Of a stretch of 64,000 nucleotides of DNA, positions 2,142-3,812 are shown piece by piece (position 1 is the first letter of the stretch; the number at the start of each line of letters is the position of its first letter). The stretch lies in the IMG/VR virus record IMGVR_UViG_3300033273_000833, positions 139,068 through 203,067 of that record; one strand, given 5' to 3'. The notes beneath the pieces are model-generated. The model was not told where the DNA came from. It worked only from the letters and a program-made list of their open reading frames with translations, and made no database searches. Position numbers and translations under genes: made by a program. The DNA is from a virus. Lineage: Duplodnaviria > Caudoviricetes.

Positions 2142-2395
2142 TGGATGCAACAATTAAACCAATTAATAATAAGGTTAGTATGTTCGCAACTGATGAAGAA
2201 TTATATGAACAATTAACTGCAAAAGAATTAATGTTAATTAAGTTGGTTAAAGTAGAAGAATATGTAGATGATTTATATAGAGCACATGATTCTGATACAA
2301 ATAAAAAATTATTTCCACCTGAGAAGAGTTGGTTTAAAATAAAAGAATTATTAAGAGAGTGCAGAAAAATTAATAAAAGTAAAATAAATACTTGA
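2141..2395 (+). CDS. Hypothetical early protein
   Basis: TAATG coupling with the upstream gene. Confidence 0.7.
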   Translation: MDATIKPINNKVSMFATDEELYEQLTAKELMLIKLVKVEEYVDDLYRAHDSDTNKKLFPPEKSWFKIKELLRECRKINKSKINT

Positions 2396-2426
2396 CAAAT
2401 AAGACTAAATATACTATAATTATATA

Positions 2427-2767
2427 CATAAATTGAGAAACAAACTCAAATAAATAAAATAAATTGATCTTTAACATTTTTAACACTTTGGAAGGGCTTA
2501 TAATCCTTCCTGTGGGTGACTGAACAAACCTGTCGTAAGCGGGTTAAAGTATGCAGATCCCTGTGGTGGGGATGACAGAGTCCAATCGGATGAGTCAAAT
2601 GGCAAATACCACGCCTAGTCTGTAGTTCAAAGTAGGAAACTCGAAACTGAAAGTTTACGCCGAAAAGATGGAGGTATCTCAGAATCCTCCCCCACACTAT
2701 ATTTCCCCATCCGTGTAACCCCCACACATCCCGCCCCTCTCAGGAATATTCTTGAGAGGGGTTTTTT
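2427..2767 (+). ncRNA. Candidate ~340-nt structured non-coding RNA
   Basis: Perfect TTGACA-17-TATAAT promoter (2392-2420), no credible plus-strand ORF, GC-enriched, multiple hairpins, ends in a terminator. Confidence 0.6.
2734..2767 (+). terminator. Intrinsic terminator
   Basis: CCCCTCTCAGGAA-TA-TTCTTGAGAGGGG followed by TTTTTT. Confidence 0.8.
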
Positions 2768-2805
2768 GTTTTGACATTTCCAGGAAACCTGCCATACTTA
2801 TTATT

Positions 2806-3060
2806 ATGAAAACATTAAAAGACATATTATCAAACTACGGATACATCACGAAACCTCAGCTTGCCGAGATCGTTGATTATTTCCCGCACATGAAGGTCGT
2901 CATTAAATGGGGAGGAATGCCCCGTGAACGGGTTCATGCTTGGGAGGCAATCCAACGCATCGAAAAGGTAGAGAACGAGGATATTGACTACTGTCGAGAA
3001 GTTTTTCTTAGTGGTAAAGATTGCGAGAATCTTAGAGTAGCACTACATATAGCAAACTAA
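2806..3060 (+). CDS. Hypothetical early protein (start likely ATG 2806)
   Basis: MKTLKDILSNYG... starts 7 nt after the -10 box CATACT. Confidence 0.7.
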   Translation: MKTLKDILSNYGYITKPQLAEIVDYFPHMKVVIKWGGMPRERVHAWEAIQRIEKVENEDIDYCREVFLSGKDCENLRVALHIAN

Positions 3061-3120
3061 ATGGAAATTATTTTAGGTGCAATAGTAATTACAATTTGTC
3101 TCGTCTGTAAAGAAGATTAA
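3061..3120 (+). CDS. 19-aa hydrophobic micro-peptide (not in ORF track)
   Basis: ATG immediately follows the upstream stop. MEIILGAIVITICLVCKED. Confidence 0.45.
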   Translation: MEIILGAIVITICLVCKED

Positions 3121-3434
3121 TCTTTTTATTCAATCATATCATATAATGACATAGCAAATATACATATAACAAATATATAAGTAGCAAATATACAACAAAT
3201 ATATAAAGCTATAATTTAAACAAAAATTTATAAAATTAAAATTCAATTCGTAAAGGGTTGAGCGTCAGTGTTTTGCGGAATCGCCCTGCCAAATTTCGCA
3301 ATTATATGGTATTCAACAACTTACGAATCACAAAGTAGTTTTTTGCAATTTTCGCAATTATATGGTATTCAACGACTTACGACTATTTTAAAAAAAGGCT
3401 TGACTTGCGGAAGTTTTCTGTCATAATTGTATAC

Positions 3435-3812
3435 ATGATCAGAACAAAAAGCGACAAGAGATACGACATCGACTTTAGTAAGAAGGTGTTTGTATATAAG
3501 AATCTTCATAAAGACTGTTGGTCAGTCAAACAAGGCGGGCTTGTCAAGGCACACGCAGACAGCTTGGAGATGTGGGATTGCAGCTTCCAAGTAAACCAAA
3601 AGGGGCGGGCAAAAGTCATTCAAGAAAAGCGTAAGAATGTTCATGCGGGCATTTCAGGCAGGATAGACGATCTTGGTGGAACAATTGCAATTGGCACAGA
3701 AGTTACATACAACCCGTACAAGTATAGCTCTTTTGTAGAAAAAGGCACAGAAAATCCCGTATATTATGCAGGATTTGCATCATTAACCCATAACAGAGTA
3801 CTAGTAGCATGA
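3435..3812 (+). CDS. Conserved phage hypothetical protein (YxNLHKxxWS...KRKNVHA...TYNPY family)
   Basis: Motifs VFVYKNLHKDCWSVK, QEKRKNVHA and VTYNPYK recognised from phage hypothetical proteins. ATG 3435 follows the -10 box. Confidence 0.75.
   Translation: MIRTKSDKRYDIDFSKKVFVYKNLHKDCWSVKQGGLVKAHADSLEMWDCSFQVNQKGRAKVIQEKRKNVHAGISGRIDDLGGTIAIGTEVTYNPYKYSSFVEKGTENPVYYAGFASLTHNRVLVA

What the first reader, a model, noticed from the sequence alone, without database searches (positions are those of the whole stretch)
2392..2767. Independently transcribed ~340-nt structured ncRNA of unknown class
Seen: perfect promoter, no credible sense ORF, GC well above the flanks, and a clean terminator. Stems include GGAAGGG/TCCTTCC (2490-2510), AACCTG/CGGGTT (2527-2545), ATCCC/GGGAT (2557-2573), TGAC/GTCA enclosing TCC/GGA (2573-2597) and GGAGG/CCTCC (2670-2690). 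The loop GTGGT of the third stem can pair with ACCAC at 2608 (pseudoknot), and TGTGGG (2511) can pair long-range with CCCACA (2691 or 2721). The 3' half has degenerate tRNA-like pieces (TAGTTCAA...GTAG; GGT...GAATCC) but no canonical cloverleaf. This is the strongest candidate for a novel RNA gene in the window.
Basis: partly seen in the sequence, partly recalled or inferred. Interest (0 to 1): 0.75.

Follow-up and report, generated by a model that had tools for sequence, protein, structure and literature searches.

The report
Free-standing manA RNA gene in phage
The flagged stretch is a real folded RNA with its own promoter and terminator in an uncultured 203-kb marine phage. It belongs to the already catalogued manA RNA family, and its layout suggests a free RNA product, not the gene-leader switch the family is filed as.

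Summary
Window 2490-2700 is a full-length match to Rfam manA RNA (RF01745): 85 bits against a gathering score of 55.2, model positions 1-192. The "unknown class" reading is therefore refuted.

The transcription-unit reading holds. In 75 related uncultured phage contigs the same layout recurs:
- a consensus promoter;
- a roughly 65-nt leader with a small hairpin and a boxA-like motif (GATCTTTAACA, 10 of 11 to the published consensus GYTCTTTAANA);
- the manA core;
- an intrinsic terminator whose sequence varies freely;
- a second promoter butted against the next ATG.

The next gene differs in a third of these loci, and no anti-terminator pairing is detectable. In T4-like cyanophage loci the same RNA starts at the promoter and runs straight into a gene.

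Contigs from four metatranscriptome studies cover the core. The loop pairs L5/L7 and L8/L9 stay complementary and covary. A 2026 preprint reports these loops as the contacts that build manA cages in vitro.

Most likely this is a free-standing early phage RNA made like a miniature rRNA operon. Its function and the host are unknown. This scan has already reported free-standing manA genes on other phage DNA.

The parts
2392..2420 (+). Promoter P1: -35 TTGACA (2392-2397), 17-nt spacer, -10 TATAAT (2415-2420). The start of transcription near 2427 is inferred.
   Evidence: 12 of 12 consensus matches. A promoter within one mismatch per hexamer lies upstream in 66 of 74 lineage loci.
2433..2449 (+). 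Leader hairpin (boxB-like by position): TTGAG, loop AAACAAA, CTCAA.
   Evidence: Present in 58 of 74 lineage loci. Several relatives read TTAAG/CTTAA, a change on both sides of the stem. It forms in the MFE and centroid folds.
2466..2476 (+). boxA-like motif GATCTTTAACA followed by a T-run, 13 nt before the manA core.
   Evidence: 10 of 11 to GYTCTTTAANA (PMC5725501). It resembles the rrnG boxA-spacer ugcucuuuaacaauuua (PMC2724277). It is unique in the 203-kb genome. It is within one mismatch in 52 of 74 lineage loci and within two in 72, with perfect matches in about ten. It is absent from 36 T4-like manA loci, and the background is 0.017 per 130 nt. It is unpaired in the centroid fold.
2490..2700 (+). 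manA RNA core with helices P1 to P9. P1 2490-2495/2505-2510; P2 2512-2516/2691-2695; P3 2528-2533/2539-2544; P4 2553-2558/2618-2623; P5 2560-2562/2569-2571 (loop L5 GUGGUG, 2563-2568); P6 2573-2597; P7 2601-2603/2613-2615 (L7 with ACCAC, 2608-2612); P8 2626-2664 (L8 with CUGA, 2647-2650); P9 2670-2674/2686-2690 (L9 with UCAG, 2679-2682).
   Evidence: Rfam RF01745, 85 bits against 55.2, E 3e-20, model 1-192. On 57 copies 92.9% of cells are paired and 42 of 50 pairs change on both sides. Helix numbers are my mapping of the Rfam structure onto the preprint's labels (inference).
2701..2732 (+). Pyrimidine-rich 3' tail between the core and the terminator. It holds a second CCCCCACAC at 2720-2728.
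   Evidence: Read from the sequence. The tail begins TTTC.. in all relatives. Its length varies from 3 to 176 nt across the lineage. The second CCCCCACAC is not conserved.
2733..2768 (+). Intrinsic terminator: 13-pair stem at 2733-2762 and a T-run at 2763-2768.
   Evidence: A terminator follows the core in 62 of 67 lineage loci. There are 43 different 5' arms with the stems kept.
2771..2798 (+). Promoter P2 of the next gene: TTGACA, 16-nt spacer, CATACT. The -10 box ends 7 nt before the ATG at 2806, which predicts a leaderless mRNA.
   Evidence: The same arrangement occurs in 55 of 67 lineage loci.
2806..3060 (+). Downstream gene of 84 aa with unknown function. It is a neighbour, not part of the RNA unit.
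   Evidence: No Pfam or PHROG match. Homologues follow manA in 45 of 67 lineage loci, and other genes follow it in the rest.

Best explanation
This is a manA-family RNA (Rfam RF01745) made as a self-contained early transcript of an uncultured 203-kb marine phage with lambda-like tail genes. A host-type consensus promoter should start transcription near 2427. The 65-nt leader carries a small hairpin and a boxA-like motif in the same order as bacterial rRNA leaders. I infer that this leader recruits the host NusB/NusE complex, which would protect the untranslated transcript from Rho and help it fold. The 211-nt core folds into the nine-helix manA structure, and an intrinsic terminator should release an RNA of about 340 nt. 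The next gene has its own promoter. The RNA therefore most likely acts in trans as a stable folded particle and does not switch the next gene. It probably self-associates through its L5/L7 and L8/L9 loops, as a 2026 preprint reports for other manA RNAs in vitro. Shown here: family membership, the conserved unit layout, covariation of helices and loops, and presence in RNA libraries. Inferred: the transcript ends, Nus recruitment, oligomerisation of this copy, and action in trans. What the RNA does during infection is not known.
For: Family: a full-model Rfam hit at 85 bits against 55.2. All 29 relatives with enough flank carry it at 61-93 bits. Structure: 92.9% of cells paired, 42 of 50 pairs with changes on both sides, covariation score 0.567 against 0.175 for shuffles and at most 0.117 for slid controls. 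Unit layout in 75 loci fetched by an RNA pattern, so independently of the neighbouring gene: promoter 66 of 74, boxA-like motif 72 of 74 (within two mismatches), terminator 62 of 67, second promoter abutting an ATG 55 of 67, and the same downstream gene in only 45 of 67. No anti-terminator: terminator 5' arm against the upstream 107 nt gives mean z -0.17 and -7.9 kcal/mol, against -19.2 for the terminator stems, with 43 different arms. boxA: 10 of 11 to the published consensus, unique in the genome, absent from 36 T4-like loci. Contrast: in T4-like loci the -10 box ends 2-6 nt before the core in 29 of 35, and 26 of 35 run into an ORF with no terminator. RNA libraries: contigs from four metatranscriptome studies cover 2495-2697 and carry the paired P3 changes of the nearest relatives. 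Loop complementarity: GUGGU/ACCAC and CUGA/UCAG here; L8/L9 covary by subgroup, own 219 against permuted 197.7 +/- 6.0, 3 of 2000; L5/L7 4 of 2000. These are the contacts reported for manA cages.
Against: No transcript end has been mapped, because the RNA evidence is assembled contigs, which cannot show starts, ends, strand or level. The boxA-like motif has A where the gamma-proteobacterial consensus has C or T. The host is unknown, so its own rRNA boxA could not be compared. The permutation tests on the loops do not correct for relatedness. Two thirds of lineage loci keep the same downstream gene, so some functional link is not excluded. Oligomerisation is known only in vitro, for other family members, from a preprint. 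Rfam and the literature file the family as cis-regulatory.
Confidence: 0.65

Rival explanations
1. This is a riboswitch or other cis-regulator, as the family is catalogued. The manA core would sense a ligand or condition and set how often RNA polymerase stops at the 2733-2768 terminator, which would control read-through into the 84-aa gene.
For: Weinberg et al. 2010 proposed manA as a riboswitch candidate in 5' UTRs, and Rfam types it Cis-reg. A core followed by a terminator and then a gene is the classical order. The same gene follows in 45 of 67 lineage loci. In T4-like loci the RNA is a true 5' leader.
Against: No conserved alternative pairing exists between the terminator and the core or tail (mean z -0.17). 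The core-to-terminator distance varies from 3 to 176 nt, and the terminator arms vary freely. The gene has its own promoter right after the terminator. The downstream gene differs in 22 of 67 loci. No ligand is known.
Confidence: 0.12
2. This is a processive antitermination module of the lambda nut or HK022 put kind. The hairpin and boxA leader, perhaps together with the folded core, would modify RNA polymerase. Transcription from P1 would then read through this and later terminators of the early cassette array.
For: A hairpin and a boxA-like motif sit in a leader, within an array of terminator-bounded early cassettes on the same strand. In T4-like phages the core sits at the very 5' end of transcripts that lead into varied genes.
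Against: rrn-type boxA antitermination acts on Rho-dependent terminators, not intrinsic ones (PMC2724277). The element order is that of rrn leaders, not nut sites. The cassette lies inside the early array and not at its head. No N-like protein was identified, and every downstream cassette has its own promoter.
Confidence: 0.1
3. This is an RNA of a new, uncatalogued class.
For: The lineage is a divergent subgroup: 61-93 bits by the Rfam model against 120-197 bits for T4-like copies. It also has a leader and terminator that the catalogued motif lacks.
Against: The match covers the full model, lies above the curated threshold, and has all nine helices and the conserved loop sequences.
Confidence: 0.02
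4. The region encodes a protein on the opposite strand, the 93-aa ORF at 2446-2727.
For: A stop-free antisense stretch of 55-117 aa exists in all relatives.
Against: The alignment has 1-2-nt indels that break any frame. Substitutions follow base-pairing rather than codon positions. The open length varies two-fold between relatives. A promoter and terminator flank the sense strand.
Confidence: 0.01

Closest known systems
manA RNA motif (Rfam RF01745; Weinberg et al. 2010, PMC2864571) as found in T4-like cyanophages
   Same: It has the same nine-helix core, the same conserved blocks (GUGACUGAA, loop GUGGUG, loop ACCA, GGUAU..AUCC) and the same long-range helix. It lies directly behind a host-type promoter in a marine phage.
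   Different: Here the core sits behind a 65-nt leader with a hairpin and a boxA-like motif and is closed by its own terminator, and the next gene has its own promoter. In T4-like loci the core starts at the transcription start and runs into gp32-like or talC-like genes, tRNAs or other genes without a terminator. P6 is longer and lacks the GNRA loop of the consensus. The carrier is an uncultured phage with lambda-like tail genes and no cultured relative.
manA cage and decamer assemblies (bioRxiv 10.64898/2026.07.01.735769)
   Same: The two loop pairs named as contacts of the 60-mer former (L5-L7' and L8-L9') are complementary in this copy and covary in the family.
   Different: That work is in vitro, on other family members whose sequences are not in the text held here. 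It offers no in vivo role and still calls the RNA a putative 5'-UTR element. Whether this copy assembles is untested.
Bacterial rRNA operon leader (boxB-boxA antitermination; PMC2724277, PMC5725501)
   Same: The order is promoter, small hairpin, boxA-like U-rich motif, large structured untranslated RNA, then an intrinsic terminator. The motif matches the consensus at 10 of 11 positions and matches perfectly in some relatives.
   Different: The product is a 0.2-kb phage RNA, not rRNA. Position 2 is usually A. No boxC was identified, and binding of Nus factors is untested.
Free-standing manA RNA genes reported earlier by this scan on other phage genomes (e1-5341039, e1-5323103, e1-5365972, e1-5410058, e1-5348312)
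   Same: They show the same conclusion and a similar layout: own promoter, in several cases an rRNA-style leader, and own terminator.
   Different: They lie on different genomes, and some have doubled or enlarged cores. I did not examine those loci.

Membership tests
manA RNA (Rfam RF01745) | Covariance-model score at or above the curated gathering score over the whole model | tested here: met
   85 bits against 55.2, model 1-192 of 192, E 3e-20.
manA RNA (Rfam RF01745) | Nine-helix secondary structure supported by covariation | tested here: met
   All helices are present in the alignment to the model. On 57 copies 92.9% of cells are paired and 42 of 50 pairs change on both sides, well above the shuffled and slid controls. 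The alignment was fitted to the model, which favours the structure.
manA RNA (Rfam RF01745) | Conserved single-stranded blocks (GUGACUGAA junction, L5 GUGGUG, L7 ACCA, L9 in GGUAU..AUCC) | tested here: met
   All are present at 2516-2524, 2563-2568, 2608-2611 and 2672-2688.
manA RNA (Rfam RF01745) | Position as a 5' UTR running directly into the regulated gene (the basis of the Cis-reg label) | tested here: not met
   A terminator (2733-2768) and a second promoter (2771-2798) separate it from the next gene. The same holds in 62 of 67 and 55 of 67 lineage loci. This is a contextual feature, not a feature of the RNA, so it does not remove membership.
manA RNA (Rfam RF01745) | Self-assembly through L5-L7' and L8-L9' kissing loops (preprint) | tested here: inconclusive
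   Complementarity is present (GUGGU/ACCAC, CUGA/UCAG) and covaries. Whether the pairing is within or between molecules, and whether this copy oligomerises, cannot be tested with these tools.
Transcription-terminating riboswitch | Terminator that competes with an alternative (anti-terminator) pairing involving the aptamer | tested here: not met
   Mean z is -0.17 for the 5' arm against upstream sequence in 49 distinct loci. There are 43 different arms, and the gap ranges from 3 to 176 nt.
Transcription-terminating riboswitch | Specific ligand binding | not testable with these tools
   No ligand is known for the family.
rrn-type boxB-boxA antitermination leader | boxA matching the consensus GYTCTTTAANA in the transcribed leader | tested here: inconclusive
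   The window matches 10 of 11 (A at position 2). About ten relatives match perfectly (GTTCTTTAATA or GTTCTTTAACA). The motif sits at a fixed position and the background is 0.017 per 130 nt. The host's own boxA is unknown.
rrn-type boxB-boxA antitermination leader | Binding of NusB/NusE and resistance to Rho | not testable with these tools
   This needs binding or reporter assays.
tRNA or tRNA-like element | Cloverleaf detectable by tRNA finders | tested here: not met
   ARAGORN finds no gene in the window, and Rfam gives no tRNA hit.

The most novel reading that the evidence does not exclude
manA may not be a regulator at all. It could be a phage-made RNA building block, transcribed early from a miniature rRNA-style operon, perhaps trimmed to its 200-nt core, and assembled through its kissing loops into closed RNA-only particles inside the infected cell. 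Such particles might sequester or shield some host or phage component. That would give the in-vitro manA cages a natural setting and would be the first RNA-only compartment known in biology.
Probability: 0.2. Interest if true: 0.9.

Novelty: new variant of a known kind. Interest (0 to 1): 0.45.

Why it matters
manA has been an orphan riboswitch candidate since 2010, and a 2026 preprint reports that it builds RNA-only decamers and a 60-subunit cage in vitro, with no known role in cells. A widespread phage lineage that makes the same RNA as a closed transcription unit, with a leader like that of rRNA operons and no link to a particular gene, argues that the RNA itself is the product. This gives concrete constructs and mutations for testing that idea. 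It also adds a phage group that carries the family: large uncultured marine phages with no psbA match above Pfam's cut-off and no cultured relatives.

Tried and rejected
- **Nucleotide searches.** Both the 12-kb flank and the unit itself found nothing among 50,697 cultured phage records.
- **Protein searches.** The capsid-region protein has no match there. The terminase is at most 25% identical to phages of Firmicutes. Neither identifies the host.
- **psbA.** A search of the genome gave only a sub-threshold fragment.
- **Bacterial genome scan.** The lineage pattern gave 7 hits, of which only 3 are real manA copies by the model. They lie in MAGs of three unrelated taxa (Cellvibrionales, Rickettsiales, Neomarinimicrobiota), and one is a 210.8-kb contig. 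I read these as phage DNA binned by mistake, not as a host signal.
- **RNA contigs.** In the four RNA runs laid, the flanks 1900-2490 and 2700-3500 had no cover and the contigs end inside the core. Contigs cannot show ends or levels, and no DNA run was laid beside them. I therefore draw no conclusion from this about processing or relative abundance. No joints were seen, so there is no sign of a circular form here.
- **Unlaid runs.** Runs with small word shares that I did not lay are not used.
- **L8 extraction.** Automatic extraction of the L8 loop by folding was unreliable, so I replaced it with a scan of the whole P8 interior.
- **Second CCCCCACAC (2720-2728).** I considered it as an alternative partner for P2, but it is not conserved in relatives.
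- **Leader-tail pairing.** I looked by eye for pairing that would close the unit and found none. The MFE fold pairs only a few A/U bases there, and the centroid drops them.

Full report
**What is there.** Window 2392-2768 holds a perfect host-type promoter (TTGACA, 17 nt, TATAAT, 2392-2420) and a strong intrinsic terminator (13-pair stem at 2733-2762 plus a T-run). No sense ORF of 30 aa or more lies between them. GC rises from about 0.21 upstream to 0.465 in the core. A scan of the whole window against Rfam gave one hit. It was manA RNA (RF01745) at 2490-2700 on the plus strand, with 85 bits against a gathering score of 55.2, E 3e-20, covering model positions 1-192 of 192. It is the only copy in the genome. 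ARAGORN finds no tRNA or tmRNA in the window.

Their long-range TGTGGG/CCCACA pairing is P2, using the copy at 2691. Their GTGGT/ACCAC 'pseudoknot' joins loops L5 and L7.

**The carrier.** The window is the last 64 kb of a 203,067-bp IMG/VR virus record that CheckV rates as complete.
- It has a distant large terminase, a lambda-type minor tail protein, an endosialidase-chaperone fibre end and very large tail-region proteins.
- It has no nucleotide match and no capsid-region protein match among cultured phages.
- Its terminase is at most 25% identical to phages of Firmicutes.
- A search for psbA gave only a sub-threshold fragment.
- It is not a T4-like cyanophage, which is the group in which manA was described.
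- The host is unknown. Three real copies in bacterial MAGs lie in three unrelated taxa and look like binning errors.

**The unit is conserved as a unit.** I first fetched 30 viral contigs through the downstream 84-aa protein, at 58-95% identity. All 29 with enough upstream DNA carry a full-length manA, at 61-93 bits, ending about 100 nt before that gene. Their flanks show the same order everywhere:
1. A consensus promoter.
2. A leader of about 65 nt with the hairpin TTGAG-AAACAAA-CTCAA and the block TTGATCTTTAACATTTT.
3. The core.
4. A pyrimidine-rich tail.
5. A terminator.
6. TTGACA, 16-17 nt, and a -10 box that ends 6-7 nt before the ATG.

To remove the bias of that search, I then fetched 75 contigs with a pattern specific to this lineage's RNA and scored them:

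| Feature | Loci with it | Loci with enough flank |
|---|---|---|
| Upstream promoter | 66 | 74 |
| Leader hairpin | 58 | 74 |
| boxA-like motif, within two mismatches | 72 | 74 |
| boxA-like motif, within one mismatch | 52 | 74 |
| Terminator | 62 | 67 |
| Second promoter abutting an ATG | 55 | 67 |
| 84-aa gene homologue downstream | 45 | 67 |

At least ten loci keep the whole layout in front of a different gene. The RNA cassette is therefore modular and not bound to one gene.

**Contrast with the catalogued form.** A general manA pattern and my covariance model R1 gave 36 full copies with usable flanks in other viral contigs, and the 15 of these that I re-scanned score 120-197 bits by Rfam. 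In these copies:
- the -10 box ends 2-6 nt before the core in 29 of 35, so there is no leader;
- 26 of 35 run into an ORF within 90 nt with no terminator;
- only 1 of 35 has a terminator within 120 nt;
- none has a boxA-like motif.

The same RNA thus occurs in two settings. It is the 5' end of messengers in T4-like phages, and it is a closed unit in this lineage. By the Rfam model this lineage is a divergent subgroup.

**The leader.** An earlier first-reader note on this same stretch (e1-5376160) suggested an rRNA-style boxB/boxA leader, so I tested the idea.
- The published sequences are the rrnG boxA-spacer CAC-ugcucuuuaacaauuua (PMC2724277) and the gamma-proteobacterial consensus GYTCTTTAANA (PMC5725501).
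- The window has GATCTTTAACA followed by a T-run, which is 10 of 11 matches with A at position 2.
- About ten relatives have perfect matches, GTTCTTTAATA or GTTCTTTAACA.
- The motif is unique in the 203-kb genome and sits at a fixed place in the leader.
- It stays upstream when an extra element of about 60 nt is inserted before the core.
- It is unpaired in the centroid fold.
- The background for a match within one mismatch is 0.017 per 130 nt.
- The hairpin shows one change on both sides of the stem, TTAAG/CTTAA.
- The order hairpin then boxA is that of rRNA leaders, not of lambda nut sites.

The resemblance is real and conserved. Binding of Nus factors is inferred, and the host's own boxA could not be compared.

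**The terminator is not a switch.** For 49 distinct loci I compared the best duplex between the terminator's 5' arm and the 107 nt upstream with duplexes of shuffled arms.
- The mean z is -0.17.
- The mean energy is -7.9 kcal/mol, against -19.2 for the terminator stems.
- There are 43 different arms.
- The distance from core to stem ranges from 3 to 176 nt.

A conserved core followed by freely drifting terminators, each followed by a promoter, is what a plain end of a transcription unit looks like.

**Structure and loops.** On 57 copies aligned to R1, 92.9% of cells pair and 42 of 50 pairs show changes on both sides. The covariation score is 0.567, against 0.175 for shuffles and at most 0.117 for slid controls. 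The alignment was fitted to the model, which favours it. Against the Rfam consensus, this copy's P2 differs at two pairs by changes on both sides.

A July 2026 preprint (10.64898/2026.07.01.735769) reports cryo-EM structures in which manA RNAs form octamers, decamers and a 60-subunit cage. These are built from pentamers held by L5-L7' and L8-L9' kissing loops, or in a second class by an L6 GNRA contact, L5-L7' and L3-L8'. It gives no in vivo data. Numbering the Rfam helices in order gives P1 to P9, with the GNRA loop on P6, which fits the preprint's labels. That mapping is my inference.

- This copy has L5 GUGGU with L7 ACCAC, L8 CUGA with L9 UCAG, and no GNRA on P6.
- L8/L9 complementarity changes by subgroup: CUGUA/UACAG, AUGUA/UACAU, ACUG/CAGU, CUGA/UCAG, ACUAAA/UUUAGU and AACCA/UGGUU.
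- The sum for each RNA's own loops is 219, against 197.7 +/- 6.0 for permuted partners, reached in 3 of 2000 permutations.
- L5/L7 includes UGGC/GCCA variants, and the own-loop sum is reached in 4 of 2000 permutations.
- These tests do not correct for relatedness.

**Expression.** Runs were found by shared words. Contigs from four metatranscriptome runs of four studies lie on 2495-2697, at 95-99% identity. They carry the paired P3 changes of the nearest relatives, L121 and L122. This shows the core in RNA libraries. It does not show ends, strand or level.

**Mechanism, with steps marked.**
- Shown: family membership, the conserved promoter-leader-core-terminator-promoter layout, the lack of an anti-terminator, the variable neighbour gene, helix and loop covariation, and presence in RNA libraries.
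- Inferred: a start near 2427 and an end near 2768, Nus-factor recruitment by the leader, action in trans, and oligomerisation of this copy.
- Unknown: the function in infection and the host.

I put 0.65 on the free-standing RNA reading, 0.12 on a terminator-type cis-regulator and 0.10 on a nut- or put-like antitermination module. The rest goes to minor rivals.

**Relation to earlier scan results.** A word search made after my analysis shows that this scan has already reported free-standing manA-family RNA genes on several other phage genomes, several with rRNA-style leaders. My result agrees with those reports, and I did not examine those loci.

Noticed in passing
L122:2600-2690, L134, L139-L142 and many of L151-L225 (boxA 63-176 nt from the core): In many relatives an extra element of about 60 nt or more, which looks like a hairpin, is inserted between the boxA-like motif and the manA core. 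The leader therefore accepts additional folded modules.
   Followed up: partly
L087, L068, L038, L045, L031, L036, L112 (first 60 nt after the manA core): A conserved small hairpin (..CCTAAGATGCAAC.. / ..GGGCAGATGG.. followed by a T-run) lies directly after manA in several T4-like loci. It matches no Rfam family at gathering score.
   Followed up: partly
L093, L028, L071, L068, L113 and others, about 40 nt upstream of manA: In T4-like loci the -35 box TTGAC sits in the loop of a GC-rich hairpin whose T-run forms the promoter spacer. This is a combined terminator-promoter element like the promoter-early stem-loops of T4-type phages.
   Followed up: no
L041:9346-9550 (minus strand): This is a divergent manA-like RNA. 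My lineage model finds it (78.7 bits) but Rfam does not report it at gathering score. L7 lacks ACCA, L8/L9 read AACCA/UGGUU, and about 190 nt of further GC-rich sequence follows before a terminator.
   Followed up: no
L231 (contig JAYQMT010000004.1, 210,818 bp, labelled Cellvibrionales MAG): A contig of phage-genome size with a lineage-type manA (220 bits) is filed inside a bacterial MAG. Two further copies lie in Rickettsiales and Neomarinimicrobiota MAGs. These are probably phage contigs binned by mistake.
   Followed up: partly
window 2688-2696 and 2720-2728: The 3' strand of P2 with its flank (CCCCCACAC) is repeated 32 nt downstream in the tail. The repeat is not conserved in relatives.
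   Followed up: yes
L112:5862-5910, L068:312-360: Glutamine riboswitch (glnA leader, RF01739) hits lie just above threshold in two T4-like contigs that also carry manA.
   Followed up: no
L127-L130, L131, L133, L134, L138, L144, L146-L149: tRNA genes lie 2-3 kb from the manA cassette in many relatives, whereas this 64-kb window has none.
   Followed up: no
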